Assembly: GCA_964342405.1 (NCBI GenBank) | Contig: CAYFGX010000013.1 | Coordinates: 87,098 to 151,097, forward strand | Direction: 5' to 3' | DNA from: an uncultured Verrucomicrobiota bacterium | Lineage (GTDB): Bacteria; Verrucomicrobiota; Verrucomicrobiia; Limisphaerales; AAA164-E04 | DNA length: 64,000 bases | Program-made: the position numbers and the translations under genes | Shown here: in pieces, positions 23,077 through 53,821 of the stretch | How the letters are laid out: each line of letters opens with the position of its first letter | How positions within the stretch are numbered: the first letter of the stretch is position 1 | The notes under the pieces: model-generated | What the model was told of the DNA's origin: nothing | The model's input: only the letters and a program-made list of their open reading frames with translations | The model's database searches: none

Positions 23077-23108
23077 TTTGGCGGAATCGTGATTTGTGAG
23101 GAGCGAGG

Positions 23109-29226: not shown

Positions 29227-32200
29227 GTGTTTGATTTCGATAGTATTCTCCGACGTGGGTTTAGAGCTCTGACGGGGGACGCAGACATTAATTTTAAACC
29301 TAAGCGGGAGCTGATCTGCCTGCGCTCCGCAGTCGTTGGTCTGGCCTTGTTGCTTTCGATCGGAGCGGAAGGGGCTGTCACTCGGGTTTATGTCGATCAG
29401 AGTGCTGCGGCAGGGGGTGATGGAACTTCATGGCAAGCTGCGTTTCGAGAGCTCAGATACGCATTGCTCGCTCTGGGACCGAACCCTGACGTTCTCACCG
29501 AACAGGAACCGGTTGAAATCCGAATTGCTTCCGGTACCTACCTTCCGGCTGCGACCTCCAGCAGTGAGGATCGCTACAAGAGTTTTGATTTCTCAGGTTG
29601 GTATGACATGACTGTGATTGGAGGCTTTCCGGTAGGAGGTGGGGGGCTCGCCACGGTGAATCCAAGAACCAATGTCACGGTTCTAAGCGGAGATCTCGAC
29701 GGCGATGGCACTCCAGAAAATAACTCCTACAACGTTGTTACGGCCAAGGACAATATCAATCTCACTTTTCAGGGGCTGGTCATCGAACACGGGAATACGG
29801 TTTATCGAAAGGACGACGTTGCCGGCGTTCAAAAAAATCAGATCGTCAATCTTCAGCGTGCGCGAACCGAGGCGGCCCTGAGGGGCTTTGATCTACGAGG
29901 GAATCTTCCCAGTATCGGTCCAGGCTGGATTAAGATTCAGGCTCCCAATCTTTCCAGTGTTTACAATAGTAGGACTCCTTTCGGCGGATGGAATGAAGGG
30001 GATCTTCCGTGGTTGAAAAAACTTTCGAGTGCCTCAGCTTCTCCCGCCACTTGGGCCTTCAATCAGGAACTTTTCATCAGTAGCAATCGCATCAGTGACG
30101 AGAATGGTCATGAGTTTCCGGATCCTTTCAACCCCCTGATGAAACTGGACGCCATTGAACGCTATGAAGGAGATTTTCAGATTGAAAGGCCCTTTTCAAG
30201 TGGGCGCCGCGTTTTCCCCTTTGACATCATTCCTTTCGAAGAGGATGGCATGCCAGGGCCTCGATTTGAGGAACGTAACAAGGATTATCTCTTTGCTGCT
30301 TCTTTGGATGATGTAAATCCGTTCTCCCATGTCGCCAAGCCAGGCTTCGACAGAGTTTCTGGTTTGAATCGAGCTTACCATGATGCGATTCACCGACGGG
30401 GAAACGGTGGTGGCGTACGGAGTTTTCGCTGCTGGAGGCTGTTGTTTCAGGACTGTGTGTTTCGGTTTAATTCTGCGGATGCCTATGGTGGGGCTGTCTT
30501 CAGTAAGCACTCATCCGTTACCTATCAGAATTGTGTCGCCCTTCGAAATAGATCCGGTGCGAGTGGGGGGGCATTCTGTCATTTGGAGGATTCATTCAAG
30601 TTCTTTGAGTGTGAGTTTTTGAAGAATGAAGCGGTGGAGGGGGGTGGACTCTATACTCTCTGGGAGGGGGACGATTACAAGTCCCCTTCATCGGACGACT
30701 TGGTTGGCGACGCGATTGCCCTTTCTCAGGATACTTCTAGGTTTGCGAGAAATGTAAAGAGAGGTCTAATCGCTGGTGCTATTCGGGCGGCCGCAAGGGA
30801 TACGGTTATTCAAGCGGTTAAGAATCAGTTTAAGAACGAGGCAAAGGAGGCATTGTTCGAGACTTTCAAGGACAAGTATAAGTCTGAACTGACAGGCAAG
30901 GAGATTGCGAAGAATCTTGCCAAAGCTGTTGCCTACCAGGGAACGAAATATTTTCATCAATGGTTGGAAGAGGAAGGCTGTGGGAATAATTCCGATTGTA
31001 TCGCCTATGCTCGATTCATGAACAACGTTTTCAAAATCGTTGACTTGGTTCTGTACTGGACGGACGTATTCAATTTGTTCAACGAGTTGAAAGATTTTGC
31101 AGAGGAAACGAATAAGTCTCCAGACGAGGTCGAGGAAGAGCGTCGCCGGGCTGAGGAAGCGAGACTCGCTGCTGTCTTGCTCGAACGGCGGCAAGATTTC
31201 AATTCTGAGGCCAGGTCGATTGTTCGAGACTGTCTTTTTGTCGAGAACGTATCTGCTTTGGGAGGTGTTGGCATTCGGTCGCTTCACACGAATATCCGAA
31301 TCGATCGAACTCAGTTTCTCAATAACCGCTCCACTGGCGCGAGTCTACTTGTTGGTGAGCGGCGTGATGATTACGAGTGGGGCGGTGCCATTCATGGATC
31401 TCATTACTGTGACTTCCTTGTAAGTAACTGCCTCTTCAGGGGGAATCGCACTCATTCGGGCTTGGCCTCTGCGATCATCCTTCGGGTCAATAGCAGTCTG
31501 TTTGCTGAGTATTGCACTCTTCATAACAATAAGGCAGACGAGGGATTCGGATCGGCTTTTTACGGTCTTACCGGCGTCTCTTCTTGGTTCGAGAATTCTA
31601 TTTTTTGGGGAAATCGAAACTCGGAGTTCGATGTGGTGGGCCCGGCCGATATTCAAAGTATTACTTATGACGCGTTACCTGGTGAGATAAAAACTCGGAT
31701 GGCTAACAATGGTCTTGATGCGTCAGACTTTGGCTCTTCGGTTGCCCATCTCGGGGATAGTTTTATTGAGTCCTATCCCGGCTCGTTGGGAGAAGGCGTT
31801 CAGGATAAAGGAGGAAATACTGGGGTCGACCCCGTTTTAACCGCGGACTCCCGACCACAGTGGAATTCACCTCTCCTCGGCTATATTCCGATCAGACCGG
31901 TCGAGCTCCGTGAGTATTCCGAGAAAATTGAATATATTGGTAACGGCTTCTACGGTGCTGTGACAAATCCAGGGGATGTAAAAGATGTTCTGGGTGTTCC
32001 CAGATTGCACGGATCCTATGCCGATATCGGCTGCTTCGAACGAGCGGTTGTTCCTGCGCGAATCTACGTTGGTGGAGCCGGTGTTGTTGGTGGACAAAGG
32101 GGAGACTCTTGGTCGAGTGGAATGGCCGATCTGGCAACAGCGCTGGATGTCATCGATCATATTGTGCCGGCGGAGACGGAGATTTGGGTAAGAGAGGGTG

Positions 32201-47200: not shown

Positions 47201-50200
47201 TTGATTCAATTGATTCGCCACGAGACGGAGATTTCTCTGTTTCGAGAATGATTGATGGGAATACGGGAACAGATACGTGGTATGAAGATTTCAATAACGA
47301 GCCTCAGAACGCACTGCTGAATATTTCGTTTGATTCGGCCTACTATCTCAGTCGCTACGCCATTACCTCGACGATCCATAGTTGGGCTCCTGCGAGCTGG
47401 CGGGTTTGGAATTTTCAAGATGGCGTTCGCACCGATATCGATGAGCGGTCCGGTCAGTCATTTCGCAATATGGCTACAATCGCGAATGGCGTTCCACCGC
47501 TGAACCCTGTGGACCACGTTTGGCTGTCTCTCTTTGGTCAGTCATTCGCTCGCTACCTGATGATTTCTGAAATTCAATTCTATGGACGTGCGTTGCCTGT
47601 GGCTGAATTGACGAGTCGCCGAATTCTCTTGGCTGATATTGATAACGATTCAGACCTTGATCTGATTAGTGGCAATCCAAGTAGTACCGAGACTCGAGTC
47701 TATCTCAATGACGGGAGTGTCGGGCGAGATCGAGTTCCTCAGTTCTCTCATGGACGGGTTCTCTTTAAGGGGGGGTTGGAGGCTGGATCCTATTTCGGTG
47801 ACTTCGACGGAAATCAATTGCGCGATGTGTTTGCCCTCACAACTGCCCCGAGTGGAGGTTTGGAGTCCCATGTGCTGCGAAATGAAGGTGGCGGAACCTT
47901 TTCGGTTCATCAGACAATTGTGGGTGGAAAGCGATTGGCTCTCGGGGACATCGAAGGCGATGGCGACCTTGATGCGGTGATGGTTGTCGAGCCGGGCTTA
48001 GACGGAGGCGCTTCTGCTGCCGAGTTGATCGCCAGTCGTTACTCCCAGCTTCCTATCGCTTCGGGAACGAAAATTGAAATACTGGAAGATCACAGTTTTT
48101 CGTTCACTCGGACCTTCTTTGAAGACCGTGTCAGCGATGACGGAGCGTTTTCAGGGATCAAGATTGTCGCTCTGCCGGCAAATGGCTCTCTCAAGCTTGG
48201 GAGCGCGACGATTGCTGTGGGACAACTTCTCGATCCAGACCAGCTATCCGAGTTCGTTTACGTTCCGCAACGGGGATTCAGCGGCAAGAACTGGTTCGAG
48301 TGGCAAGCCCGGGATCGATCGGACCAGCTATTTAGTGCCTCTGGCAGGGTTCAGATTAAAGTGATACCGGTCAATGATCGTCCAATCATGAGTTCGATCT
48401 CGGATAGAACCTTCGATATTGCGAAAGCGAATCCTTGGGTACGATATTTTGATCCTAGTCCCGGCGATTCAGACCAAGAATGGTTTATGGAGTTGAGCCA
48501 TGATAATCCTCAGTTGATCCGCTCTGTGACCCGGGATGTGAGTGCGAACGATCGAATCAATCGACGTGGAAAAATTCGATTTGATTTTGTCGAAGGGCAA
48601 ATTGGATCGGCCCTTGTGACGGTTGTTGTCACGGATGATGGAGGCACCGCCCATGGAGGCATCGATCGATTTGTGACCACGTTTACGGTGACCGTTCGAG
48701 ATACGGTGAATCCTGCGATTGCCAATATGCCTGCGGACATTTCCGTCGTCGTTGGTGCGGGATCACGTCTCGTCCCGGTCACTTGGGATCCGCCAACACT
48801 CAATGTAAATTCAGGTCTCACGAACCTGAGCTCTAGTCATTCATCGGGAGATCTGTTCCCCATCGGTGCTACTCCTGTTGTCTATACCGCCAGCGATGGT
48901 TCAGGTAATGAAGAGACGGCAACCTTTACCGTGACCGTGCTGGATCAAGAGTCGCCGATGGTGGTTAACCCGATCTCTTCTTTTGACGTGCCTCTTCCAA
49001 TCGGAGACGTGACGGCGCAGGTCTACTGGGCGCCTCCTGTGTTCGCTGATAATGATCGAATCAAATTGCAAGGAAGCACGCACGTGCCCGGTGACGTTTT
49101 TCCGGCTGGTGATACGGCCGTTCAATACTGGGCAGAGGATCCTTCGGGGAATCGGTTAAGTTCTGAGTTTGTTGTGTCGGTGGTCGACCGAGAGCTTCCC
49201 GTCCTCAGTGGGGTCCCTTCGGATAGGACTCAGGAGACCGATCCGGGTCTTGCTTCTGCGACGGTGACTTGGTTGCCGCCTGTGGCCTCTGACAATTCGG
49301 GGTCCGTTCAGCTCAGTGCAAGTCACTCGCCCGGAGAAATGTTCGCGGTGGGGGAAACGGTTGTGACTTATGCTGCGGTTGATGGAGCGGGAAACCGGAC
49401 GGACGGGGACTTTACGGTTCGGGTTGTGGATCGTGAAGCGCCGAGTTATGCAACGTTTCCCGCAGATATTGATGTCGCAACGGATGCTGGGCTTGCAACA
49501 GCGACGGTGACCTGGGTGGCTCCTGTTGCTTCGGACAATGTTGGGGTTGTCACATCGACCGCGACCCAGCAGCCTGGTGCCAAATTTCCTCTTGGACGAA
49601 ACGTCGTGGTCTATTCCGCAAGGGATGCGGCCGACAATGTCGTCACTCGTTCGCTCGTCATTTCGGTGTTGGATCAGGAACGACCAAGTATCTCCGGTCT
49701 CCCTGCGGATATCTCGATCCCGGTCTCGGCCGGGGCCGAAGGGATGAGTATCGATTGGGTAGAACCTACTGCGAGCGACAATGTTGCGGTAGCGTCCTTC
49801 ACCAGTTCTCATCAGCCTGGGGCGCTCTTTCCGATTGGGTTGACAACAGTGACCTATACGGCCAAGGACTCCGCGGGAAACGAACTGAGTCGTTCCTTCA
49901 AGGTGCAAGTGACGGATGACGAGGCGCCATCTTTTGTAGGGAGCCTCGAGACCGTTGAAGTACCGACGGATCCCGGGCTTGCGAGCGCTCGTGTCACTTG
50001 GGATGCGCCCCTCGTCCACGATAATGGGGAGAGAGTCGCTTTGAGTTATAGCCGAGCCCCGGGATCGATCTTCCCGTTGGGAACGACGACGGTCAATGTG
50101 ACCGCGACTGATATTTCGGGCAATCAAGCGTCCGACAGTTTTGATGTTGTGGTTGTCGACGAGGAAAGTCCTGTGTTCGAGAGTGTTCCCGCTGATATCA

Positions 50201-53124
50201 CGTTGATCCTCGCCTCAGGTGAGGAAAGTGCCGTGGTTACCTGGGAGAACCCGGTCGTGTCTGACAATGTGGCTGTCACAAGCAGTGTTGCCAGCCCGAG
50301 TTCCGGAAGTTCATTCGAGATTGGTGTTCACACCATTACCTTGACGGCCAGCGATCTCGCGGGAAATGAGACCGTGGAGAGCTTCGTTGTTTTTGTCCTT
50401 CCAACCGGAAACATTATCAACGTTTCGCCCTCTGAGAGTGGGGCGATGATTGCTGCGGATTCGAGTCTCTCTCTAACCGGTGACCTGGATCTGGCTTCCC
50501 ATACCGTCGATGAGGACAGCATTCGTGTTCACTTGTCTCAGAGCGGTGGGTTTCGGTCCGGGGATCGGGGTTTCGAGTCTGTTACGGGCGTTAGAGAGCG
50601 GGTGGAGATTCAGCCCAAAAAAGCATTCAAAGCGGGTGAGCGCGTTTCAATCACGTCGACCCGATCACTGAAAAACCGTCTAGGCGGACCGATGAACGCG
50701 CGGACCTGGCAGTTCCTCGCGGGAGTTGATAGTTCGGAGGGAGCCCTGATTCCGCCCCTCGGCCCAGTAGCGGATGCCGACGGAGAAATGGTCGCCTTGG
50801 GTGACTTTGATGGGGACGGAGATCTCGATTGTTTCTTGGCGAGTACTGCTGCTGACCGAGTGCTTCTTAATGACGGCCTGGGAAGTTTTAGTGACACAGG
50901 GCAACGATTGGGACAATCGCCAAGTCAGCCCAAAGACGTGGATCTTGGAGATCTTGATGGGGATGGGGATGTCGATGTTGTGGTGACAGGGCTCGGTAGC
51001 CACGGGACGCAAGTGTATCTGAATGATGGTCAGGGAGGCTTTCAAGATCAGGGCCAAGTGTTTCTCGATGGCGTCTTCTACGCAGCCGAACTGGGTGATC
51101 TTGATTCCGATGGAGATCTCGATCTGTTCCTTGCGAATTACGACGGAGCGGATCGAGTTTACCTTAATGACGGATTCGCCACATTCAATGACGGAGGGCA
51201 AATGCTAGGGAACATCGACCGGGGTGGTGTCACCGGTTGGAGCGTGTCTGTCGATGCGAGCATTGGAGATGTAGACCGAGATGGGGATCTCGACATCGTG
51301 GTTAGTGAGTTCGATGGCTATTGGTATCAATTGACCAATGATGGGACCGGGAATTTCAGTGCGATGCGATTGCCGACAATGCCCTTTGGGCAGCAGAGAA
51401 AGATTGAATTGGCTGATCTGGATGGAGATGGCGATCTGGATGCGATGAGCCTTTACGGGACGGGTTATGCCGTTTGGGGTCGAGATTCTGAAGGAGCCTT
51501 GAGTGTCGTCGATCAGTTTGATCCAGAGGTGATGGATGCCATGGCACTGGGGGACATCGACGGCGATGGCGATCTCGACATGGTGATCAGCGGGCAGGAT
51601 CGAGGCTACAAGTTCTGGATGAATGACGGAACAGGAGCCTTTGAAGTCGGACCTCGAGTAGATGGAAGTTTGAACCTGGGGCTTGCCCTTGGGGATATTG
51701 ATGGTGATGGGGATTTGGATCTGATAGGGAATCAGTCTTGGTGCTACAACCAGCATGCAGTGCTTGCGGATAAGGCTTACACCATTTCCGAAGAGGAGAA
51801 CATCTCGCTGGAAGCAGCTGATTTTGCTGCGCTGCGTGAGGACGGGGACGGTCCGAGTTTCGCTGGGATTCAAATCAGTAAGGTGCCAACAAAAGGGACC
51901 CTTGTGACCGGTGGCGTCACGCTGAAAGACGGTGACGTACTTGTCCCGAGCACAATGCAGAGCCTGGAGTACGTGCCAAACGAAGGAAGTGTTGGGGAAG
52001 ACTCGTTTGAGTGGGATGCCACCGATGGGTTGGCATACTCGGAGAATCCAGCAACCATTTCGATCACCATTACGCCCTCAAGCATTCCCGCAATTGTAGG
52101 GCGGAATATCTTCTACAATAATTCTTCCTTTGATCAGAACGATAGCGCGATCAACGAGCACGATGACTCTGCTGTCGCAACGAACAAGAGTGCTCTTCGG
52201 AACGGCCAAATGGGGACGCTCTCGCATGTGAGCAACTATAGCAAGGGGCTCAACGGGGTCATGATCGACGTGGAAAATATTCCCGACACGATCAGCCTTG
52301 CTGATTTTAGTTTCAAGGTGGGGAACGACAATGATCCCGCCAATTGGGTTGCTGGCCCAACACCCGCTCAGCTTCTCTTTCGTGCCGGGGCAGGGACTGG
52401 CGGTTCTGACCGTATTACTCTGGTATGGATCGATAATAACAGAGACGGCGTTGACGATGTCAATGAGGCTCCTCATGGGAAGTGGATGCAAATCACTGTC
52501 CTCGCAAATGCTTCCACGGGCCTTGCTGCTGATGACGTGTTCTACTTTGGGAATGCCATAGGGGAAACAGGGAATGCCCCTGGAAGTGCCCGGGTGACGA
52601 CTGCTGATGTGCTCTTGGTTCGAAACAATCCAAAGTCGTTCCTATCACCGGCCTTGATCACAGATCCTCATGACATAGACCGAGATGCGCGAGTGAACGG
52701 GGTCGACGTGCTGTTGGCCAGGAATCACATGACAAGTTTTCTCAATGAGCTTCAACTTATTGATCTCACCGGTTTGATCGCAGCCGATTCAGCGATAGGT
52801 GGTGGAGTAGAAGTGGACGCATCGCTCCCAGCTCAAGCTGAGATTGCCAAGGCGTTAGATGCTTTGACTGCCCGAGAATCCATCTCCGAGGTGAGGCCTC
52901 CAAGCCTTTCTTTGGATCCGTCGGGACAGATTAAGATTACCTTCCCGGGCGTCTCTGGAGGAAGTTATTCGGTTTTCTATAAGGACGGCATGGATCGGCC
53001 TGACTGGCGTGAGTTAAGCGCAGATGTTGTCGAAGTGTCCCCGGGGTGGTTTGTCGTCATGGACTCCACCGAGTCTCCAAGTCGCTTTTACCAATTTAAG
53101 TTGAATCATTCAGAACATGAATAG
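29227..53124 (+). CDS. giant secreted multidomain surface/adhesin-like protein (7,965 aa): signal peptide, 10x [right-handed beta-helix (Pmp-like) + Ig-like], HYR x8, FG-GAP/VCBS propellers, discoidin, cadherin-like domains, C-terminal dockerin-like module
   Basis: Single uninterrupted 23.9 kb ORF. GTG start at 29227 is the only in-frame start upstream of the signal peptide (LICLRSAVVGLALLLSIGAEGA). Domain evidence is given in the separate domain features. Confidence 0.9.
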   Translation: MFDFDSILRRGFRALTGDADINFKPKRELICLRSAVVGLALLLSIGAEGAVTRVYVDQSAAAGGDGTSWQAAFRELRYALLALGPNPDVLTEQEPVEIRIASGTYLPAATSSSEDRYKSFDFSGWYDMTVIGGFPVGGGGLATVNPRTNVTVLSGDLDGDGTPENNSYNVVTAKDNINLTFQGLVIEHGNTVYRKDDVAGVQKNQIVNLQRARTEAALRGFDLRGNLPSIGPGWIKIQAPNLSSVYNSRTPFGGWNEGDLPWLKKLSSASASPATWAFNQELFISSNRISDENGHEFPDPFNPLMKLDAIERYEGDFQIERPFSSGRRVFPFDIIPFEEDGMPGPRFEERNKDYLFAASLDDVNPFSHVAKPGFDRVSGLNRAYHDAIHRRGNGGGVRSFRCWRLLFQDCVFRFNSADAYGGAVFSKHSSVTYQNCVALRNRSGASGGAFCHLEDSFKFFECEFLKNEAVEGGGLYTLWEGDDYKSPSSDDLVGDAIALSQDTSRFARNVKRGLIAGAIRAAARDTVIQAVKNQFKNEAKEALFETFKDKYKSELTGKEIAKNLAKAVAYQGTKYFHQWLEEEGCGNNSDCIAYARFMNNVFKIVDLVLYWTDVFNLFNELKDFAEETNKSPDEVEEERRRAEEARLAAVLLERRQDFNSEARSIVRDCLFVENVSALGGVGIRSLHTNIRIDRTQFLNNRSTGASLLVGERRDDYEWGGAIHGSHYCDFLVSNCLFRGNRTHSGLASAIILRVNSSLFAEYCTLHNNKADEGFGSAFYGLTGVSSWFENSIFWGNRNSEFDVVGPADIQSITYDALPGEIKTRMANNGLDASDFGSSVAHLGDSFIESYPGSLGEGVQDKGGNTGVDPVLTADSRPQWNSPLLGYIPIRPVELREYSEKIEYIGNGFYGAVTNPGDVKDVLGVPRLHGSYADIGCFERAVVPARIYVGGAGVVGGQRGDSWSSGMADLATALDVIDHIVPAETEIWVREGVYQSPKDDGDPQDIAFRTHGHRNLRLYGGFEGDEMLADPSAFHLDVMEVCCRAELPVEGRNLIVFASVENQSEDWIRIFDSIGERVADFAVGSDVAWNFDKTRLSRSTPNLDQMRTIFGKLKSLLGLKQPDISLCLDGESDWIFGAEFDARLDLMEVERVSEIPDRGRSGIVVSRIIESGLLHFRVFDCVGRVVVDGLQTELDDPSDLVDSISLDLAGYWSSNPNTSEKADAIEEVMAFAQNEVGLKVRDSSSGTHQTTISGEHGASGDPSDNRKRLFSIDHDGRRRLKTLVVDGVTFKGAREGAFGLNPDSTQTLFRDCRFIENYNLSPTGRGGAIENQGDLTVFGSEFVGNYARKGGAIHSLGGRTTVLSSRFIDNVAEYRPNDAALIFEASAAGGAIYLDHSPATVQSSIFHGNQAIGIKAVGGAIAVSPDTQGTHADTFLTHCTIVGNQVVSGAGRVGAKPLGGGAGLFVNAFDYTQGATFIDGSIFWDNEVQGSEQVYPLPERQIDTQGKGYEILNSVVQGAATDALANVRSVNPSFDATSGDEFRLEDFSPLLNEISDSSPSFSGDAFDLLGRPTDDDFTVTLSPLDSLQEKRLFGAKRDLGAFELQSASASIGVPQSFYDAGLQLFGLSSVGFNNGPGERIRWQQFDGSGDPLLNSGDWIDLPDGADLDYVSSDSRSLLFRRNVSNYGDRYYRAVITRANGREIFSPPALFDAPILYVDHDAAGNNTGKSWTHAFTSLQDALAAARVSAGCREIWVAQGTYYPTGTFDRTISFEMVNGVGIYGGFEGGEALRVDSQRDASRTILSGDIGARNIKADNSYVVVRNAVAHGSRATLGPASILDGFVIEEGNANGQVFVADSQGGGMLNERSSPTLRNLIIQSNYANEGGGVANLDAEPTFINCTISNNTAEYGAGMFSRGGRINLDRCFIASNTAHARGGGLQSIDAIVALSFCEVRSNDGGGILHSRGQFDIRDSLVATNVGVHDAAGILVSDGGTGSVINCTVVYNRLDASGTPGLSRSGDDGQLFRVANSILWGNHFTSSRISEASANHQISGALNQTKCLVQNGGFGFDPLFVDDENGNYRLSVFSPAINSGDNAEVTDTLNSRDLDGGDSFRVQETTVDLGCYEFQTQTGGQLYFSSLPQSGAIESGKDLSMRLGNGQSAESFIIERIKDGVVATVIDDSFHVIRRNSNGLSLTLVSLDPSLDGAQYRFRDTSSESGFVSDVYELNVPSPIFVDGRVASSGNGRSWVSAKKTIRAALSVAVSGQQIWIAEGTYYPVDQASTDRTASLSLPQGVSLIGGFAGDEVSLSEREWERHPTRLSGDIGQVGVADDNSRVLLQVIGDVHGTPVSLETVIDGLIFSDGNQNLTRWDAALNLKGASPLVRNCRFENNRGYLGGAVTLDNSDAILFNCLFAGNLARNGGGGIYLRSGAGQIINCTVVGNQGGTISGGGGVLADASFTGQIVNTILWSNTDRRETNTGPSTVEQMQVRGTTMVSHSIVQGLDALAGSNNLGIDPLFLDLSLEDYRLNPFSPAVDAGDPAARLWDGLDAAGSSRVFNRGGGGIVDIGAYEAQSSARAPIGLVQSYDVGVITGSGRLDVKTLSGEANRYSWQVDRGDGAGFVALAGDGFHRITRTDTQLTLEILGAIQSMRGYRYRYVVANTTPSFVGSPVRLEVVPPVRVDSTIVSKLTAAQLDTRIEDGSSWLNAYVSLTDALNQVSRGGEIWVAEGIYYPSDPTAGRRDQAFAMRPDVGIYGGFKGFGANAESLRSERDPVLNRSILSGDIGVLNDPTDNSFNVIRNQGLTEALDRDSVLDGFVIVGAYREASANFDLSDGGAIHNQSNHPTIRNCVIEGNLGQRGGGIANYDSAPLISRVEVRNNRAATGAGLYNHYSSPRIENCLIAGNTASGDANRFGGGVFNDVSSAPTFLFCTVSANQSPFGGAGIGNDSSASPIIANSILWGNLSGDIAGTSLFGGTPTVSFSTVQASPSPAGTGNQNFNPLFQAWRTQDYSLSPFSPALDSASTSVAMEDTAFLDLSGAPRVSGAQSDLGCYELDLSSGRKSPIMLTSAPEQGFSMGSTEFPVIGHPAALVQWEMDLTNDNVVSFVPLIESPNRQLRTTASASTLEVIEPTAAASFRFKAVQNGEVFVSEAFSVAVMDPILVKSDASGVEDGKTWGTAFRTLTSALAQASLGQEIWVAAGVYFPTSGRDASVAFEMKDRVAIYGGFDGTESNRDSRDWLSNVTVLSGNIGELSVESDNSLHVLSNRDLSRRAVLDGFVIEGAFGGAAMLNRNASPTVRHCVFRDNQSLVTGAGIVNVLGAPLIEASSFYRNRGLRGGALESLGAGSFPEVVNSLFYENEAVSDGGAIFNEDGGRFVNVTVAFNRTGELVGGMDNAKANAVTVSNSILWGNQPSFSNRSQVLSGQIRKGTILQSIVQGMAIPGEDGNSGLDPLFVNPAFGMFQLSGFSPGIDAGNSSYLDDRFSKDLMNRDRRFAGTTVDLGAYEFQGARVGDIGLFQAFTDTTLLGGGTLRVRVPSGQGAKVEWLQDVGAGFVPVVMDSVHSVLIDDESSALRILNPAIDLNGARYAFQIVVPSAGTFQSGSATLKVFAPLLVDASVTPVASGRDTNGVYQSLQQALAEVSEGGAIWVAAGTYTPTGIDSGDRSASFGLVPGVSVLGGFESGQLPAQWSAASRDPDQFVTRLSGEIGDPNLRTDNSFRVIDNDGRTRDLGERTILDGFVVEGGYGTNGVGMRNVDASPVIRDCVFRDHYASASGAAVENQGTSAPLIAACRFYDNESGSTGGAISNFGSGNPLVVNSVFQGNRSGGAGGAIYSEALAAVINGTFTLNHSGGLGGAVFGLTPDSVEVVNSILWGNTATEEVSVEQGQVFGAAVTDSIVHGLEKLAGNRNIALDPLFIDPSQYDLRLSVYSPAVDQGAAGKDPSGQTTDAWKQPRVFGSQVDLGAFEVPSVSPGALGIIEGYSVVELAEGETVLRLRVAAGSVGSIVWQVDRGAGFEDLVSDAVHELLVSGEVVQLKIVSPSFSMNGFRYRYRVNGTAPEFVSFPVTLKVAPAIRVSQATGSDDNDGLSWGQAVKSIQKALSLVTTNGEIWVAAGTYYPTDGGNTGRGTSFQFGQRVSVYGGFRGDEGTRAARDWRLNPTILSGDIGNIGDDSDNSYHVLEHRSSEGLNGTHLDGVIVQDGHASGSGYQQDYGGGIFVHSGTLTLRNTMIRENKASWRGGAVAIEQGKLQLEGALIYNNSAVSSAGAIVLLSGDVTLTNTTVTENTSGSRTAGIDVFPGGRLTVSNSILHNNRTSGAASDLETQQLSGNASVFNSIVEGLNRYRSANSFAIDPLFADPENDDFSLSAFSGAIGRGSNASLPTGYTTDLDGVARVLPANDRTVDMGAYEYSGAAAGGLEVVQFPSFDSLIGGGELKVVVTPSFRNRIIWQIDRGDGTFVDLVADSVHSVVFGADSSTLKVSFPDAHLAGARYRFRVSGTSPEYVSESASLRLLPVLKVDADAAAGGDGLSWTTAFRTIQEAFAALPTVGLREIWVAEGTYYPSLTNARGDSFELQNNLRIYGGFQGGDDSEALSDRDWKSYPTILSGNIGSSSSSSDNSKRIIHNRGSSQINASAVLDGFVIEAGNGDNGAGIYNYAASPTIRNCHFRNNVVTSLGGAMYCIDSSPIVSDCIFENNEAQMGGSVRLSSGAAEFRRCQFLGGRASLGGGLSVGNSPALFENCLFAGNHATGSGGNYGGAIAVSYVDATGKTRFLNCTVVDNTSAGGAAGIELSPTPFGPVEVHNSILWNNLARGVANFDSQLKGNGITIRHSMVNGISDFGGNIASPPDFVAPSQKDYRLTACSFGINQGNNAAIPLPSLDLAGNARLFDGQAESDVVDMGAYELAGEVPANRLVLNASPVSRGVQEGGNASFSVTAVGDAVTYQWQSDDKGNGVFANLSDTAPYSGVTSSSLSVTAIPATLNGTQYRCVVTAASGCQEISESASLGVRFSTLFVDVDVTGNGDGSSWENAFTDLQASIATAAALNTEVEIWVAEGTYYPAGINSGNRDASFMMYPNVSLLGGFSGAEEAASERDWERNLSILSGDIGVANDNTDNSKHVVFASGPDIQKTLGPSAILDGFIVEKGYGPGGSGLHVDGASPTIRNVVFRGHVSTAKGGAIYIDREVEGFTQDSSPSFESCRFENNTAQSGGGAVFGIHMGNQRFQECVFENNRTLSGRGGAASFETKPFVAASNLQFLSCSFVGNQSTGPGGAMAVDQEDGELNLRNCFFGGNRATSGAGGALSLGLEGGSTNESFVVGCTFLANRARWGGGAISNRVRNFEMHNSIIWNNRDTSGTGGNRALDVSSDQSIIRQQVTIKSSSLENYAGIKGLIEERLDPYTPTSFTKFVAIGNLSVDPLFVQMGDPDVAPSVSVSPEINWCSPVIDRGFTTELVGSDRDVTGNSRRFRRGAPDIGAYELQEERIPSISIVSHPEDAYSSPSGTAVFSVIARGSFDSYLWQQDLGDGAGWMGLQESATYQNVGTDTLTIVGPALLLDQSSYRCVVSSAVGCAPISSNGADLFVDSTPPSITGMPDTIYLYPASGDRSAEATWTEPVASDNYAVATLVHDGPQDRVFAEGTTTVTYTATDLAGNVRTAKFDVIVTPLIAAILPSPKPGGAVDQNSEFVSIEFDQSIAGSSLGDQSVFVYGSQSGRSSIGNGGLDSLEANGAAIRIQDLESFYPGESVQVTFTDKVMSTRTHAMEPYIWSFQMANRSSDGGFDLDLESIMPNADLIPKLGDLDEDGDLDLWLADPMGGSRWMRNDGSGVFADAGQSMGSAKVNSVELLDLDGDGDLDGVVLTEVGLAIECWMNDGNGVFTSRVNSVGTGDVRDLAVGDFNGDGVLDLFAAHHDAPSEYWKNDGTGFFSVEWSTPGSERASGIEAGDLDLDGDLDVILTRVDSLGASQSDQVYLNRMRGSFLGPFDLTVSEADITQLGATIDSIDSPRDGDFSVSRMIDGNTGTDTWYEDFNNEPQNALLNISFDSAYYLSRYAITSTIHSWAPASWRVWNFQDGVRTDIDERSGQSFRNMATIANGVPPLNPVDHVWLSLFGQSFARYLMISEIQFYGRALPVAELTSRRILLADIDNDSDLDLISGNPSSTETRVYLNDGSVGRDRVPQFSHGRVLFKGGLEAGSYFGDFDGNQLRDVFALTTAPSGGLESHVLRNEGGGTFSVHQTIVGGKRLALGDIEGDGDLDAVMVVEPGLDGGASAAELIASRYSQLPIASGTKIEILEDHSFSFTRTFFEDRVSDDGAFSGIKIVALPANGSLKLGSATIAVGQLLDPDQLSEFVYVPQRGFSGKNWFEWQARDRSDQLFSASGRVQIKVIPVNDRPIMSSISDRTFDIAKANPWVRYFDPSPGDSDQEWFMELSHDNPQLIRSVTRDVSANDRINRRGKIRFDFVEGQIGSALVTVVVTDDGGTAHGGIDRFVTTFTVTVRDTVNPAIANMPADISVVVGAGSRLVPVTWDPPTLNVNSGLTNLSSSHSSGDLFPIGATPVVYTASDGSGNEETATFTVTVLDQESPMVVNPISSFDVPLPIGDVTAQVYWAPPVFADNDRIKLQGSTHVPGDVFPAGDTAVQYWAEDPSGNRLSSEFVVSVVDRELPVLSGVPSDRTQETDPGLASATVTWLPPVASDNSGSVQLSASHSPGEMFAVGETVVTYAAVDGAGNRTDGDFTVRVVDREAPSYATFPADIDVATDAGLATATVTWVAPVASDNVGVVTSTATQQPGAKFPLGRNVVVYSARDAADNVVTRSLVISVLDQERPSISGLPADISIPVSAGAEGMSIDWVEPTASDNVAVASFTSSHQPGALFPIGLTTVTYTAKDSAGNELSRSFKVQVTDDEAPSFVGSLETVEVPTDPGLASARVTWDAPLVHDNGERVALSYSRAPGSIFPLGTTTVNVTATDISGNQASDSFDVVVVDEESPVFESVPADITLILASGEESAVVTWENPVVSDNVAVTSSVASPSSGSSFEIGVHTITLTASDLAGNETVESFVVFVLPTGNIINVSPSESGAMIAADSSLSLTGDLDLASHTVDEDSIRVHLSQSGGFRSGDRGFESVTGVRERVEIQPKKAFKAGERVSITSTRSLKNRLGGPMNARTWQFLAGVDSSEGALIPPLGPVADADGEMVALGDFDGDGDLDCFLASTAADRVLLNDGLGSFSDTGQRLGQSPSQPKDVDLGDLDGDGDVDVVVTGLGSHGTQVYLNDGQGGFQDQGQVFLDGVFYAAELGDLDSDGDLDLFLANYDGADRVYLNDGFATFNDGGQMLGNIDRGGVTGWSVSVDASIGDVDRDGDLDIVVSEFDGYWYQLTNDGTGNFSAMRLPTMPFGQQRKIELADLDGDGDLDAMSLYGTGYAVWGRDSEGALSVVDQFDPEVMDAMALGDIDGDGDLDMVISGQDRGYKFWMNDGTGAFEVGPRVDGSLNLGLALGDIDGDGDLDLIGNQSWCYNQHAVLADKAYTISEEENISLEAADFAALREDGDGPSFAGIQISKVPTKGTLVTGGVTLKDGDVLVPSTMQSLEYVPNEGSVGEDSFEWDATDGLAYSENPATISITITPSSIPAIVGRNIFYNNSSFDQNDSAINEHDDSAVATNKSALRNGQMGTLSHVSNYSKGLNGVMIDVENIPDTISLADFSFKVGNDNDPANWVAGPTPAQLLFRAGAGTGGSDRITLVWIDNNRDGVDDVNEAPHGKWMQITVLANASTGLAADDVFYFGNAIGETGNAPGSARVTTADVLLVRNNPKSFLSPALITDPHDIDRDARVNGVDVLLARNHMTSFLNELQLIDLTGLIAADSAIGGGVEVDASLPAQAEIAKALDALTARESISEVRPPSLSLDPSGQIKITFPGVSGGSYSVFYKDGMDRPDWRELSADVVEVSPGWFVVMDSTESPSRFYQFKLNHSEHE
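29387..45955 (+). repeat. ten diverged tandem units, each a ~380-aa parallel beta-helix followed by a ~95-aa Ig-like domain
   Basis: Each unit starts with a [IL]xVD..(G)DG.SW..A...L..AL......EIWVA.GTY.P block and a GGF.G box. It carries GGAI/FxxN (chlamydial Pmp-type) repeats and NxxxxGN turns. It ends with VDLGAYE[FL]Q, followed by an Ig-like segment with W[QE]xDxGxGF...RYR. Units start near 29387, 32060, 34360, 35920, 37260, 38700, 40050, 41430, 42760 and 44250. Confidence 0.8.
30750..31230 (+). other. AT-rich, Lys/Glu-rich predicted alpha-helical insertion inside beta-helix unit 1
   Basis: Local drop in GC. The encoded peptide NVKRGLIAGAIRAAARDTVIQAVKNQFKNEAKEALFETFKDKYKSELTGKEIAKNLAKA...EEERRRAEEARLAAVLLERR is unlike the surrounding Gly/Asn/Ser-rich beta-helix. 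Confidence 0.5.
45960..46210 (+). other. HYR (hyalin repeat) domain 1 of the giant protein
   Basis: PSITGMPDTIYLYPASGDRSAEATWTEPVASDNYAVATLVHDGPQDRVFAEGTTTVTYTATDLAGNVRTAKFDVIVT matches the HYR pattern (W..P.A.DN.........G..F..G.T.V.Y.A.D..GN). Confidence 0.7.
46560..47995 (+). repeat. FG-GAP/VCBS calcium-binding repeats (46560-47110 and 47620-47995) flanking a discoidin (F5/8 type C) domain (47160-47600)
   Basis: DxDxDGDLD loops (LGDLDEDGDLDLWLA, LLDLDGDGDLDGVVL, VGDFNGDGVLDLFAA, AGDLDLDGDLDVIL, LADIDNDSDLDLISG, LGDIEGDGDLDAVMVV). Discoidin-like RMIDGNTGTDTWYEDFNNEPQNALLNISFD...ARYLMISEIQFYGR. Confidence 0.65.
48700..50405 (+). repeat. array of seven tandem ~81-aa HYR domains
   Basis: Seven consecutive units share [VI]TWxxPxxSDN...hxxG..FPxGxTxVxYxAxDxxGNxxxxxFxVxVxDxExP (for example ATVTWLPPVASDNSGSVQLSASHSPGEMFAVGETVVTYAAVDGAGNRTDGDFTVRVVDREAP). 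Confidence 0.75.
50760..51760 (+). repeat. seven consecutive FG-GAP repeats (predicted 7-bladed integrin-alpha-like beta-propeller)
   Basis: LGDFDGDGDLDCFLA, LGDLDGDGDVDVVVTG, LGDLDSDGDLDLFLAN, IGDVDRDGDLDIVVSE, LADLDGDGDLDAMSL, LGDIDGDGDLDMVISG and LGDIDGDGDLDLIGN recur at roughly 50-60-aa intervals. Confidence 0.75.
52420..52750 (+). other. dockerin-like module (two Ca-binding-loop + helix segments) near the C-terminus of the giant protein
   Basis: WIDNNRDGVDDVNEAP and DIDRDARVNGVDVLLARNHM resemble dockerin type-I 12-residue EF-hand-like loops followed by a helix. Similarity is inferred by eye only. Confidence 0.4.
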
Positions 53125-53821
53125 AACACAGACCGCTTCACTAGGAGTTCCTTTGAGTATGAGGCTAGCACCAGATTTCCTTCGCTGGATCGGCTTGCTG
53201 TTGCTGCTGCTTGTCAGTTCCGGCAAGGCTCAAGCTGCTTTCATTATTGTTGTGGGCGATCATGAGCTAGCGCCAGGGCTGCCCGACCAAAAAGTAGAAC
53301 TCTATTTCAGCAATACCGCAGCACCGCAGGAGATTGCTGGATTCGACTTCAACATTCAAATGGGGGATGGAGGACCAGAGGCGCCGGGTGGTGCTGTTGA
53401 TGGCCCATCAATTACGAATGTGGATCTAAAAACAAATACGATCTTTGGGGGAGTGGCTGCGACTCAAGTCATGGCTCCAAGTTTGGATCAAGTGCGAGTG
53501 GAGTCGATCACCTTGGATGCAGGGACGGTCTCCGTTCCCGTGGCGACGGATTCGAGTCTGCTGATGGCTACGGTGACCGTTGACACAACCGGCTTCAATA
53601 CACTAGGTGCGAGTTGGTCCTTGAAGATCAACAACACGCTGAACGGGAACTCACAATTCCTAGATGGGGGTGTTAGTGCCGTCGCGATCTCGGAAACTGC
53701 TGGTTCGATCACGATTGCAGCCGTACCAGAGCCTAAGGCTTTTGCTTTGGTTGCGGGGGGCTTTGTCGTTCTCTTCAGATTGTGGGGGCGGAGGCGCGAA
53801 GGGCTCGGCTCGTCTGCCTGA
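53117..53821 (+). CDS. PEP-CTERM sorting-domain protein (exosortase substrate), overlapping the giant gene stop
   Basis: 234 aa. ATG at 53117 overlaps the giant TAG stop (ATGAATAG). N-terminal signal (LLLLLLVSSGKAQA). C-terminus VPEPKAFALVAGGFVVLFRLWGRRREG is a PEP motif, TM helix and Arg cluster. Confidence 0.7.
   Translation: MNRTQTASLGVPLSMRLAPDFLRWIGLLLLLLVSSGKAQAAFIIVVGDHELAPGLPDQKVELYFSNTAAPQEIAGFDFNIQMGDGGPEAPGGAVDGPSITNVDLKTNTIFGGVAATQVMAPSLDQVRVESITLDAGTVSVPVATDSSLLMATVTVDTTGFNTLGASWSLKINNTLNGNSQFLDGGVSAVAISETAGSITIAAVPEPKAFALVAGGFVVLFRLWGRRREGLGSSA

What the first reader, a model, noticed from the sequence alone, without database searches (positions are those of the whole stretch)
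29227..53124. 23.9-kb single ORF encoding a 7,965-aa secreted giant protein
One uninterrupted reading frame covers 37% of the window, about 860 kDa. The architecture is a signal peptide, then 10 tandem [parallel beta-helix with chlamydial-Pmp-like GGAI/FxxN repeats + Ig-like] units. These are followed by an HYR domain, FG-GAP repeats, a discoidin domain and more FG-GAP repeats, two cadherin-like domains, a 7x HYR array and a 7-blade FG-GAP propeller. A cadherin-like domain, a dockerin-like module and an unassigned ~120-aa C-terminus complete it. The units are diverged at the DNA level, so this is an old, maintained architecture rather than a recent assembly artefact. The combination HYR + Pmp-like beta-helix + integrin-like propeller + discoidin suggests a cell-surface adhesin or matrix-binding fibre.
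Basis: partly seen in the sequence, partly recalled or inferred. Interest (0 to 1): 0.8.

Follow-up and report, generated by a model that had tools for sequence, protein, structure and literature searches.

The report
Giant surface protein with cohesin-dockerin tether
The 7,965-residue gene is real, conserved and under purifying selection in marine Verrucomicrobia; it most likely encodes a giant cell-surface fibre that plugs, through a dockerin at its tail, into a cohesin-shaped membrane anchor encoded by the overlapping next gene.

Summary
An uninterrupted ORF runs from 29227 to 53124 (+), 7,965 aa, with a chance probability of about 1e-159. A second assembly gives the same length. Two related lineages carry colinear genes at about 70% amino-acid identity with dN/dS about 0.12. 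The gene has no internal nucleotide repeats, so repeat collapse is very unlikely.

Most of the proposed architecture holds: ten beta-helix + Ig units, 1+7 HYR domains, two 7-blade FG-GAP propellers and a dockerin. The 'discoidin' is only sub-threshold and sits inside the first propeller. The 'cadherin-like' domains are weak Big_9-type Ig hits. The 'unassigned' C-terminus is a small FN3/Ig-like sandwich.

The parts
28391..29095 (+). NarL/LuxR-type response regulator, directly upstream on the same strand
   Evidence: Pfam Response_reg 9.8e-23 and GerE 3.7e-16
29227..53124 (+). Giant ORF, 7965 aa, GTG start
   Evidence: same product in a second assembly; dN/dS about 0.12 against orthologs
29227..29373 (+). 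Putative Sec signal peptide with a long n-region (aa 1-49; basic residues K24/K26/R27/R32, hydrophobic 33-45, AEGA|V)
   Evidence: read from the sequence; no predictor was run
29353..32046 (+). Unit 1 (aa 43-940), expanded beta-helix unit
   Evidence: unit HMM; Chlam_PMP and Beta_helix hits
32062..34326 (+). Unit 2 (aa 946-1700), expanded beta-helix unit
34360..35874 (+). Unit 3 (aa 1712-2216)
35887..44205 (+). Units 4-9 (aa 2221-4993). Six regular units of about 450 aa, each an N-cap, a right-handed beta-helix with GGA[ILV] repeats, a choice-of-anchor-Q motif and an Ig-like tail
   Evidence: unit HMM scores 573-637 bits; choice_anch_Q up to 1.3e-14; unit profile hits the PDB chain 9cdu_A, Rhombotarget A, at 1.3e-9; tail profile hits the Ig protein 9ncf_S at 2.9e-12
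44212..45918 (+). Unit 10 (aa 4996-5564)
45955..46197 (+). HYR domain (aa 5577-5657)
   Evidence: Pfam HYR 1.2e-11
46534..48036 (+). FG-GAP propeller 1 (aa ~5770-6270). Seven Ca-motif repeats: 4, then an insert, then 3. It is preceded by a weak Big_5-like Ig domain (aa 5675-5764)
   Evidence: FG-GAP_3 5.4e-22; motif positions
47074..47616 (+). ~180-aa domain inserted between blades 4 and 5; possibly galactose-binding/discoidin-like, unproven
   Evidence: F5_F8_type_C_2 E=0.13 in the window, F5_F8_type_C E=0.14 in the L004 ortholog; no PDB sequence hit
48046..48696 (+). Two Ig-like (Big_9 / bacterial cadherin-like) domains (aa 6274-6490)
   Evidence: Big_9 7e-4, Cadherin_4 0.016; tandem-95 1.4e-8, below its cut-off
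48697..50394 (+). Array of 7 HYR domains (aa 6491-7056, period 81 aa)
   Evidence: Pfam HYR 5.3e-92, 7 stretches
50749..51741 (+). FG-GAP propeller 2 (aa ~7175-7505), 7 contiguous Ca-motif repeats
   Evidence: FG-GAP_3 1.2e-41; motifs at aa 7193, 7242, 7291, 7348, 7397, 7443 and 7490
51748..52068 (+). Big_9-type Ig domain (aa 7508-7614)
   Evidence: Big_9 2.3e-4
52018..52110 (+). Junction where colinearity with the L004 large ORF ends and homology to the separate 558-aa L004 protein begins. About 2.4 kb of L004 is absent here
   Evidence: L007 reads straight through the same junction
52087..52551 (+). Conserved, unannotated beta-sandwich ('X-like' module, aa 7621-7775) ending in the invariant motif DVFYFGNA
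52552..52776 (+). Diverged type-I-like dockerin (aa 7776-7850). Two F-hand segments lie 33 residues apart; D7794, D7816 and D7827 are invariant in 61/61 sequences
   Evidence: column counts; all 22 PDB hits of the sub-profile are dockerins, best 4fl4_A at 9.2e-6; Dockerin_1 in 7/61 family members
52897..53121 (+). Terminal small beta-sandwich (aa ~7891-7965) ending ...RFYQFKLNHSEHE; FN3/Ig-like
53117..53821 (+). Downstream gene, 234 aa: signal peptide, cohesin-fold domain (aa ~42-200, nt 53240-53716) and PEP-CTERM tail (VPEP at aa 203, TM helix, RRR). Its ATG overlaps the giant's stop by 8 nt
53857..56982 (-). Sensor histidine kinase (Reg_prop propeller, Y_Y_Y, HisKA_3, HATPase_c), convergent with the giant operon and syntenic in L004 and L086
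   Evidence: synteny

Best explanation
The gene encodes a Sec-exported giant modular fibre of about 860 kDa in an uncultured marine Verrucomicrobia bacterium.

Proposed layout. The distal 5,500 residues are a chain of ten Pmp-like right-handed beta-helices, each followed by an Ig domain. The proximal 2,400 residues carry HYR arrays and two Ca-binding 7-blade FG-GAP propellers, one of which has an inserted domain.

Proposed mechanism. The protein is not covalently anchored. Its C-terminal 'X-like beta-sandwich + dockerin' dyad docks, in a Ca2+-dependent way, onto the cohesin-fold domain of a small protein made from the overlapping downstream gene. That small protein is fixed at the cell surface by a PEP-CTERM/exosortase signal. 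The result would be a long, non-covalently tethered surface fibre that most probably mediates adhesion to particles, glycans or other cells. Its expression is probably controlled by the flanking NarL-type regulator and Reg_prop/Y_Y_Y sensor kinase.

Shown here: the gene is real and under selection; the domain identities; the dockerin homology; the cohesin fold; the PEP-CTERM tail; the conserved gene pairing and overlap.

Inferred: physical cohesin-dockerin binding, surface display by an exosortase, the adhesive function, and regulation by the two-component system.
For: Real, selected gene:
- (ORF and its chance probability)
- (second assembly)
- (no internal nucleotide repeats)
- (orthologs; dN/dS 0.12-0.13)

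Dockerin:
- Two F-hand segments with invariant Asp residues at loop positions 1 and 12, spaced 33 residues apart.
- The sub-profile hits only dockerins among 177,635 PDB sequences: 22 of 22 hits, best E=9.2e-6, with alignments covering both segments.
- Pfam Dockerin_1 is found in 7/61 family members and in the L004 ortholog at 4.6e-5.
- The AF2 model places helices directly after each loop.

Cohesin:
- AF2 model with pLDDT 92.7.
- The same domain occurs 2-4 times in some 1.7-3 kaa proteins, as in scaffoldins.

Anchor: VPEP + TM helix + RRR; the PEP residues are invariant or nearly so; PF07589 is found in 24/72 members.

Linkage:
- The 8-nt overlap ATGAATAG/ATGAATAA is conserved in three lineages.
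- A cohesin-like gene lies directly downstream of the dockerin-bearing gene in 6/6 other Verrucomicrobia loci versus 2/57 loci from other phyla, Fisher p=4e-7.
- From the cohesin side, 22/53 metagenome loci have the dockerin module within 2.5 kb upstream on the same strand.
- Both domains sit in one ORF in L030 and L077.
- The cargo on such dockerins is diverse, as expected of a general anchoring device.

Precedent: a non-cellulosomal cohesin-dockerin 'planctosome' was hypothesised for Planctomycetes (PMC6461901).
Against: - No binding was modelled or measured.
- Pfam's Cohesin model does not hit the partner at any threshold, and Pfam's Dockerin_1 reaches only E=0.12 on this sequence.
- In the window's dockerin, the first Ca loop is partly degenerate: Pro and Ser at loop positions 3 and 5.
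- In Planctomycetota the module occurs dozens of times per genome, mostly without an adjacent cohesin gene. Adjacency is therefore not universal.
- In lineage L004 the giant ORF lacks the dockerin, which sits on a separate 558-aa protein. Tethering of the giant through this route is therefore not obligatory.
- No exosortase and no outer-membrane export route for the giant was seen in the window.
- The adhesive function rests only on domain families.
Confidence: 0.55

Rival explanations
1. The giant protein is released into the exopolymer matrix rather than tethered to its own cell. Its dockerin binds other partners, such as multi-cohesin proteins or glycans. The adjacent cohesin-PEP-CTERM gene is only co-regulated matrix material, comparable to flocculation-type PEP-CTERM proteins.
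For: - The cohesin-like ORF gives sub-threshold matches to flocculation-associated PEP-CTERM PepA (E=1.4e-3) and other small PEP-CTERM families.
- Multi-cohesin proteins exist in this family.
- In L004 the giant has no dockerin at all.
Against: The conserved 8-nt overlap and the reciprocal adjacency point to a one-to-one partnership. The PEP-CTERM tail includes a predicted TM helix, which argues for a cell-associated partner.
Confidence: 0.2
2. It is a surface-docked enzyme array. The ten beta-helix units would be active polysaccharide lyases or hydrolases, and the cohesin-dockerin pair would play its classical role of assembling a degradative complex (cellulosome- or 'planctosome'-like) for marine glycans.
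For: - The right-handed beta-helix is the fold of pectate lyases; there are faint or weak hits to Pel9A-like_beta_helix and DUF5123.
- The Reg_prop/Y_Y_Y sensor next door is of the type that senses glycans in Bacteroides hybrid two-component systems (function from general knowledge).
- A planctosome precedent exists.
Against: No CAZyme or lyase family reaches threshold in any tile. The best family matches are the adhesin-type Chlam_PMP and choice-of-anchor Q. The units are only 24-39% identical, with few invariant polar residues. The rest of the protein (HYR, FG-GAP, Ig) is adhesion-type.
Confidence: 0.13
3. The cohesin-fold protein is a secretion or folding partner (chaperone- or usher-like) for proteins carrying the C-terminal module. 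On this view the module, together with the terminal FYR-type sandwich, is a sorting signal and not a docking device.
For: - The module usually sits at the extreme C-terminus and is massively multicopy, as sorting domains are.
- The terminal '...FYR..' sandwich recurs at C-termini and alternates with PEP-CTERM on cohesin paralogs.
- No outer-membrane export route is otherwise evident.
Against: The dockerin homology is specific and the partner has the cohesin fold. That combination has a well-established binding function. Most module-bearing genes in Planctomycetota have no adjacent partner.
Confidence: 0.1
4. The ORF is an assembly chimera or a decaying pseudogene.
For: It comes from short-read metagenome assemblies. 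Relative to L004, the 3' end looks like a fusion of two genes.
Against: - Probability of an open frame by chance is about 1e-159.
- Two assemblies give an identical length.
- There are no internal nucleotide repeats.
- An independent MAG from another sample reads straight through the 'fusion' junction.
- dN/dS is about 0.12 along the whole compared length.
Confidence: 0.02

Closest known systems
Cellulosomal cohesin-dockerin anchoring (e.g. Clostridium thermocellum type I/II pairs; X-module-dockerin dyads binding anchoring scaffoldins)
   Same: - Duplicated F-hand dockerin.
- Cohesin jelly-roll fold.
- A beta-sandwich module packed directly N-terminal to the dockerin, as in X-Doc dyads. X-Doc chains 2b59_B, 3kcp_A and 4wi0_B appear among the weaker profile hits.
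- The partner is a cell-surface anchor.
   Different: - The host is a Gram-negative PVC bacterium.
- The anchor is PEP-CTERM, not SLH or sortase.
- The cargo is an adhesin-like giant, not a CAZyme.
- The cohesin is not detected by Pfam PF00963.
- Binding is untested.
'Planctosome' hypothesis for freshwater Planctomycetes (Andrei et al., ISME J 2019, PMC6461901)
   Same: Non-cellulosomal cohesin/dockerin in the PVC superphylum, combined with HYR, proprotein-convertase P-domains and LTD. The same domain vocabulary appears here on module-bearing proteins.
   Different: That model is a peptidase-organising complex anchored through an LTD protein, built from Pfam-detectable cohesins. Here the system is a two-gene cassette with a PEP-CTERM cohesin and a giant fibre as cargo.
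Chlamydial polymorphic membrane proteins (Pmp) and choice-of-anchor Q beta-helix proteins; Rhombotarget A (PDB 9cdu)
   Same: - GGA[ILV]/FxxN repeat beta-helix: Chlam_PMP above its cut-off in several tiles.
- choice_anch_Q once per unit.
- The unit profile hits Rhombotarget A at 1.3e-9.
   Different: There is no autotransporter beta-barrel. Ten helices are chained in one polypeptide, whereas the relatives found carry a single unit (420-790 aa).
Giant modular adhesins of Gram-negative bacteria (RTX adhesins such as MpIBP or LapA) and Omnitrophota 'dockerin-type' giant proteins (bioRxiv 10.1101/2023.11.21.568195)
   Same: Multi-thousand-residue, Ca-binding, repeat-built extracellular fibres. The Omnitrophota set also combines dockerin-like folds and discoidin domains.
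   Different: - No RTX repeats or T1SS genes. The nearby TolC-like, HlyD-like and AcrB genes form an RND efflux set.
- It has an N-terminal Sec-type signal.
- At 7,965 aa it is far below the >30,000 aa discussed in that preprint.
Integrin alpha-subunit beta-propeller with inserted I-domain; echinoderm hyalin
   Same: A seven-blade FG-GAP propeller with Ca-binding loops and a domain inserted between blades. HYR arrays are 30-40% identical to those of hyalin-like proteins.
   Different: The insert lies between blades 4 and 5 and is not a vWA domain. The similarity is at domain level only: no hit covers more than 31% of the C-terminal 2,566 aa.

Membership tests
Dockerin type I (PF00404) | Two tandem F-hand segments (Ca loop D-x-[ND]-x-D-x-x-[VI]-x-x-x-D followed by a helix), about 30-35 residues apart | tested here: met
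   Segment 2 is D7816-I-D-R-D-A-R-V-N-G-V-D7827 followed by a helix. Segment 1 keeps positions 1, 8 and 12. The spacing is 33 residues. The Asp at position 12 of both loops and the Asp at position 1 of loop 2 are invariant in 61/61 sequences; helices follow each loop in the model.
Dockerin type I (PF00404) | Significant sequence match to the family | tested here: inconclusive
   The window sequence reaches only E=0.12 against Pfam. However, 7/61 family members and the L004 ortholog pass (best 3.4e-6), and a sub-region profile hits only PDB dockerins (best 9.2e-6).
Dockerin type I (PF00404) | Ca2+-dependent binding to a cohesin | not testable with these tools
   No complex prediction was available. 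Support is genomic linkage only.
Cohesin (PF00963) | Nine-stranded beta-sandwich (jelly-roll) cohesin fold | tested here: met
Cohesin (PF00963) | Sequence match to the Pfam family or to solved cohesins | tested here: not met
   No Pfam hit at E<=10 for three orthologs or for 72 family members at E<=0.01. The family profile finds no cohesin in PDB sequences.
PEP-CTERM sorting signal (PF07589 / TIGR02595) | C-terminal PEP motif, hydrophobic helix and basic cluster | tested here: met
   VPEP at aa 203, a predicted TM helix, then RRR. PEP is invariant or nearly so across the family, and PF07589 is found in 24/72 members (best 8.2e-8). The window sequence itself has no Pfam hit; its orthologs give E=0.05-0.07.
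PEP-CTERM sorting signal (PF07589 / TIGR02595) | Cognate exosortase in the genome | not testable with these tools
   None was found among the annotated ORFs of the 64-kb window. The rest of the genome is not available.
Chlamydial Pmp / autotransporter adhesins | GGA[ILV] and FxxN repeats in a beta-helix passenger | tested here: met
   Chlam_PMP scores 35.7 and 35.4 bits against a cut-off of 20.6. GGA[ILV] occurs 20 times in aa 1-5564 and once in the rest.
Chlamydial Pmp / autotransporter adhesins | C-terminal autotransporter beta-barrel | tested here: not met
   No autotransporter family was found in any tile. The C-terminus is a dockerin dyad plus an FN3-like sandwich.
HYR domain (PF02494) | Pfam match above the gathering score | tested here: met
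   One domain at 5577-5657 (1.2e-11) and seven in tandem at 6491-7056 (5.3e-92, 7 stretches).
FG-GAP / integrin-alpha-type propeller | Seven FG-GAP repeats with D-x-[DN]-x-D-G-x-x-D Ca loops | tested here: met
   Propeller 2 has 7 canonical motifs at a period of 46-57 aa. Propeller 1 has 4 + 3, with 2 of the last 3 degenerate. FG-GAP_3 scores up to 1.2e-41. The fold itself was not modelled.
Discoidin / F5_F8_type_C | Match to PF00754 or PF22633, or the galactose-binding-like fold | tested here: inconclusive
   E=0.13 (window) and 0.14 (L004 ortholog), both far below cut-off. No PDB sequence hit.
RTX / T1SS giant adhesins | RTX nonapeptide repeats, a C-terminal T1SS signal and an adjacent ABC/MFP/TolC set | tested here: not met
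   No RTX family hit. The upstream OEP, HlyD-like and AcrB genes form an RND efflux set with no ABC transporter.
T9SS cargo (Por_Secre_tail, PF18962) | C-terminal T9SS sorting domain | tested here: not met
   No hit in the C-terminal tiles, although many Bacteroidota HYR/FG-GAP homologs carry PF18962.

The most novel reading that the evidence does not exclude
The 'X-like sandwich + dockerin' module and the Pfam-invisible cohesin-fold family (849 cluster representatives at 50% identity) together form a general, so far undescribed surface-display system of Verrucomicrobiota and Planctomycetota. Diverse cargo would be hung on PEP-CTERM-anchored or multi-cohesin scaffolds by non-cellulosomal cohesin-dockerin bonds. 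The cargo seen here includes giant fibres, RCC1 propellers, CAP domains and P-domain proteins, and some genomes carry dozens of module copies. The recurrent terminal '...FYR..' sandwich would be a second, alternative sorting or anchor domain. In this lineage a ~2.4-kb in-frame difference decides whether the giant itself carries the plug.
Probability: 0.4. Interest if true: 0.72.

Novelty: new variant of a known kind. Interest (0 to 1): 0.52.

Why it matters
How bacteria of the Planctomycetes-Verrucomicrobia group hold very large proteins at their surface is poorly understood. They lack the sortase, SLH and (mostly) autotransporter or T1SS retention devices known from other bacteria. This locus offers a concrete, testable answer: a two-gene cassette in which a dockerin on the cargo meets a cohesin carrying a PEP-CTERM anchor.

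It also does three other things:
- It gives PEP-CTERM proteins, whose roles are mostly unknown, a defined molecular job.
- It shows that a large cohesin-fold family escapes current sequence models.
- It supplies small, well-folding domains (about 225 and 160 aa) that can be expressed and tested directly, although the organism is uncultured.

For marine ecology, such fibres are candidates for particle or algal attachment by abundant Verrucomicrobia.

Tried and rejected
The C-terminal 2,566 aa found only domain-level hits, at most 31% coverage.
2. A scan of GTDB genomes with aa 5661-6460 found nothing, so the source genome and its close kin are not species representatives there. Taxonomy rests on L007 (a Verrucomicrobia MAG, 72% identity over 2,267 aa) and on PVC-typical neighbours (PSCyt/PSD/DUF1501).
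3. The two flanking 234-aa ORFs are not paralogs.
4. Promoter and terminator scans around both ends gave nothing above the shuffle expectation.
5. PDB sequence searches with the insert and with the C-terminal 365 aa gave nothing.
7. The cohesin idea failed every sequence-level test and was settled only by structure.
A 10-sequence alignment worked.
9. Peer et al. 2009 (non-cellulosomal cohesins and dockerins) is not held in the library.
10. No paper in the library holds dockerin, cohesin and PEP-CTERM together.
11. T1SS secretion through the upstream TolC-like and HlyD-like genes was considered and rejected, because they accompany an AcrB RND pump.
12. Both structure-prediction jobs went to the C-terminus and the downstream ORF, so no beta-helix unit, propeller or insert was modelled.


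Full report
OBSERVATION

An in-frame stop lies 12 nt upstream. No ATG is available, and the only other candidate starts nearby (TTG at codons 41 and 42) fall inside the hydrophobic stretch. From the gene's own base composition, a stop is expected every ~22 codons (P = 0.0448). The probability of 7,965 open codons is therefore about 10^-159. The other five frames of the same stretch contain 161-456 stops.

The window comes from a Tara Oceans marine metagenome (sample ERR868484). A separate ENA assembly of that sample calls a product of the same length that differs at 3 residues, and the exact protein is already in NCBI and ENA without a name.

Repeat collapse or expansion, the main assembly worry for repeat proteins, is very unlikely. 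Within the gene the longest exact direct repeat is 17 nt, and self-blastn finds only two weak HSPs. The ten units share 24-39% amino-acid identity.

CONSERVATION

Two other lineages carry the gene.

L004 is an ENA metagenome contig of 36 kb. It has an 8,142-aa ORF whose last part aligns colinearly with giant aa 4852-7624 at 70% identity. The unseen N-terminal part is about as long as in the window (4,821 vs 4,851 aa), which suggests the same number of units.

L007 is a contig of an 'uncultured Verrucomicrobia bacterium' MAG. It is one open frame over all 6,790 nt and is colinear with giant aa 5614-7880 at 72% identity. Contigs from the same sample (L086-L088) continue into the downstream genes.

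Nei-Gojobori dN/dS is 0.12-0.13 against both relatives, with synonymous sites near saturation. This is a protein-coding gene under purifying selection.

The organism is most likely a marine member of Verrucomicrobiota. The neighbours (PSCyt1/PSCyt2/PSD1 and DUF1501 pairs) are typical of the PVC group.

ARCHITECTURE

Units. A self-built unit HMM delimits ten units: U1 43-940, U2 946-1700, U3 1712-2216, six regular units of about 450 aa between 2221 and 4993, and U10 4996-5564. Each unit contains:
- an N-cap of the DUF1565 type;
- a right-handed beta-helix (Beta_helix up to 3e-16; Chlam_PMP above its cut-off in several tiles);
- a choice-of-anchor-Q motif once per unit;
- an Ig-like tail.

The unit profile hits the solved Rhombotarget A (9cdu_A) at 1.3e-9. 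The tail profile hits a solved multi-Ig protein (9ncf_S) at 2.9e-12. Database relatives of a unit are single-unit proteins of 420-790 aa, mostly from Planctomycetota and Bacteroidota. Chaining ten of them appears special to this lineage.

Downstream of the units:
- one HYR domain (5577-5657);
- a 7-blade FG-GAP propeller whose Ca motifs lie at 5793, 5841, 5890 and 5938, then a ~180-aa insert (5950-6130), then three more repeats from 6137;
- two weak Big_9/cadherin-like Ig domains (6274-6490);
- seven HYR domains (6491-7056; HYR 5e-92);
- a second propeller with seven canonical motifs (7193-7490);
- one more Big_9 domain (7508-7614).

The discoidin label is only hinted at: F5_F8_type_C_2 at E=0.13 in the window and F5_F8_type_C at E=0.14 in the L004 ortholog, with no PDB sequence hit.

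No protein in 5.8 billion covers more than 31% of the C-terminal 2,566 aa. The whole is a lineage-specific mosaic of common extracellular domains.

THE C-TERMINUS

The last 345 aa gave the most informative result. Residues 7621-7847 form a ~225-aa module that is 45-60% identical to the C-terminal ends of hundreds of otherwise unrelated proteins. Most of these have no Pfam annotation there.

They come mainly from Planctomycetota, with dozens in a single Pirellulales MAG, and from Verrucomicrobiota.

The helical part contains two F-hand-like segments 33 residues apart:
- N/D-x-x-x-D/N-A-x-V-x-x-x-D-x-x-x-x-R
- D-x-N/D-R-D-x-x-V-x-x-x-D-x-x-x-x-R

The position-12 Asp of both loops and the position-1 Asp of the second loop are invariant in 61 of 61 sequences. 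A profile of this sub-region, searched against all PDB sequences, returns 22 hits, all of them dockerins. The best is 4fl4_A at E = 9.2e-6, and the alignments span both segments. Pfam Dockerin_1 also hits 7 of 61 family members and the L004 ortholog.

This layout recalls the X-module-dockerin dyads of cellulosomal anchoring (the comparison is from general knowledge).

THE NEXT GENE

The ORF at 53117-53821 overlaps the giant's stop codon by 8 nt. The overlap sequence, ATGAATAG or ATGAATAA, is conserved in the window, L086 and L004, although these loci are only 70-77% identical at the DNA level. The alternative internal ATG of the window is not conserved. This fits translational coupling.

The product has a signal peptide, a ~160-aa all-beta core, and VPEP followed by a hydrophobic helix and RRR. 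It belongs to a family with 849 cluster representatives at 50% identity. Most members are 200-230 aa with the same layout, but the core also occurs 2-4 times in some proteins of 1.7-3 kaa.

PEP-CTERM (PF07589) is detected in 24 of 72 members. Nothing in Pfam, NCBIfam or PDB sequences recognises the core.

LINKAGE

Among the loci fetched through the dockerin module, a cohesin-family gene lies directly downstream on the same strand in 6 of 6 other Verrucomicrobia loci with enough flanking sequence. Four of these have two such genes in tandem. In other phyla the figure is 2 of 57 (Fisher p = 4e-7). In two Planctomycete loci both domains sit in one ORF.

From the other side, 80 metagenome loci were fetched through the cohesin family, and 53 of them have at least 700 nt of upstream sequence. 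In 22 of those 53 the dockerin module ends within 2.5 kb upstream on the same strand. In 29 of the 53 a module is present somewhere in the locus.

The cargo on these dockerins is diverse: cadherin/PATR/beta-helix giants of more than 2,300 aa, a CAP domain, an RCC1 propeller and a P-domain protein. This is what one expects of a general docking device.

MECHANISM PROPOSED

The giant is exported by Sec. The signal peptide is inferred by eye, and the route across the outer membrane is unknown.

It is then held at the cell surface because its C-terminal dockerin dyad binds the cohesin of the co-translated PEP-CTERM protein. That protein would be placed at the surface by an exosortase. The role of exosortase comes from the general PEP-CTERM/EpsH literature; no exosortase gene is in the window.

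The C-terminus would be cell-proximal and the ten-helix chain distal.

The flanking NarL-type regulator and the Reg_prop/Y_Y_Y/HisKA_3 kinase probably control expression. The kinase is syntenic in all three lineages.

The adhesive role follows only from the domain families: Pmp-like helices, HYR, FG-GAP, Ig. Binding, display and function are all inferred. I put the tether model at about 0.55.

AN EVOLUTIONARY TWIST

In L004 the large ORF does not end in the dockerin. After aa 7624 (window numbering) it continues for about 550 aa: a Gly-rich helix-like stretch, an Ig-like domain and a small terminal sandwich ending ...FFRSR.

The dockerin dyad plus FN3-like domain sits instead on a separate 558-aa secreted protein with a proprotein-convertase P-domain, 61% identical to the giant's last 345 aa.

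The window and L007 lack these ~2.4 kb and read through in frame. One in-frame indel therefore decides whether the giant itself carries the plug. Polarity is unresolved.

COMPARISON AND NOVELTY

Giant modular surface proteins are known in the PVC group and elsewhere. Proteins of 5,000-10,000 aa are charted for these phyla in the Banfield-lab preprint, so size alone is not remarkable.

Non-cellulosomal cohesin-dockerin pairs are also known. A 'planctosome' was hypothesised for Planctomycetes with overlapping domain vocabulary (PMC6461901).

What I did not find described is:
- a cohesin on a PEP-CTERM anchor (no paper in the library holds the three terms together);
- the conserved sandwich-dockerin dyad as a mass-produced C-terminal module;
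- their pairing as a two-gene cassette that tethers a giant fibre.

I therefore class it as a new variant of a known kind. The anchoring cassette lifts an otherwise ordinary giant adhesin-like gene to moderate interest (0.52).

LIMITS

- No complex was modelled.
- The signal peptide was not scored by a predictor.
- Taxonomy is by nearest MAG only.
- All assemblies are short-read.

Noticed in passing
window 52018-52110; L004 8231-10664: Relative to the L004 lineage, the window and L007 lack about 2.4 kb. That stretch holds the tail of the large ORF, the intergenic spacer, and the signal peptide and P-domain of a separate 558-aa protein. The result is an in-frame fusion of two genes that puts the dockerin on the giant itself. 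Polarity (fusion or split) is unknown.
   Followed up: partly
window 52897-53121; L004 ~9700-9963; L040 7947-9092; L054 7745-8695; L055 3372-4331; L076 7054-7848: A small beta-sandwich ending '...[FY][FY]R[VIL]..' recurs at the extreme C-terminus of the giant, of the L004 large ORF, and of second cohesin paralogs that lack PEP-CTERM. It could be an alternative sorting or anchor domain in Verrucomicrobia.
   Followed up: partly
L008-L085 (e.g. JAFGRD01 Pirellulales Zod_Metabat.813, CAYYNP01 Planctomycetaceae, DATLAN01 Thermoguttaceae): The ~225-aa sandwich+dockerin module is massively multicopy in some Planctomycetota MAGs, with dozens of loci per genome. It is mostly at C-termini and mostly has no adjacent cohesin gene. 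Pfam does not annotate the sandwich part.
   Followed up: partly
L024, L044, L073 (JABMRB01, 'Candidatus Nealsonbacteria' bin.20): Three module-bearing loci come from a MAG labelled as a CPR bacterium, on contigs of 10-39 kb. For a phylum with tiny genomes this looks more like mis-binning of Planctomycete contigs than a real occurrence.
   Followed up: no
window 19514-26171: An RND efflux set lies upstream: an unusually long 832-aa OEP/TolC-like protein, a HlyD-type membrane-fusion protein and an AcrB-type pump. It is not a T1SS for the giant, since there is no ABC transporter.
   Followed up: partly
window 128-2989 (-), 5330-8515 (+), 8526-9953 (+): Two PSCyt1/PSCyt2/PSD1 proteins and a DUF1501 protein, the classic Planctomycete-Verrucomicrobia gene pair of unknown function.
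   Followed up: no
window 15038-17377 (-): A second, ordinary-sized FG-GAP protein (779 aa) with an ASPIC/UnbV C-terminal domain. It is unrelated in context to the giant.
   Followed up: no
window 59130-60710 (+) and 61318-62658 (+): An RtcR-type sigma-54 activator is followed by a 446-aa ORF with no Pfam hit at 1e-5. It is therefore not the RtcB ligase one would expect next to RtcR.
   Followed up: no
L086 982-4109 (-), L087 1021-4148 (-): In the L007/L086 lineage the syntenic sensor kinase is called as two ORFs (756 + 286 aa) overlapping by 4 nt, instead of one 1,041-aa protein. It is either a frameshift or a split gene.
   Followed up: no
window 53117-53821: The cohesin-fold PEP-CTERM protein gives sub-threshold NCBIfam matches to flocculation-associated PepA and the FxDxF PEP-CTERM family. 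Some small PEP-CTERM families of unknown role may share this cohesin-like core.
   Followed up: no
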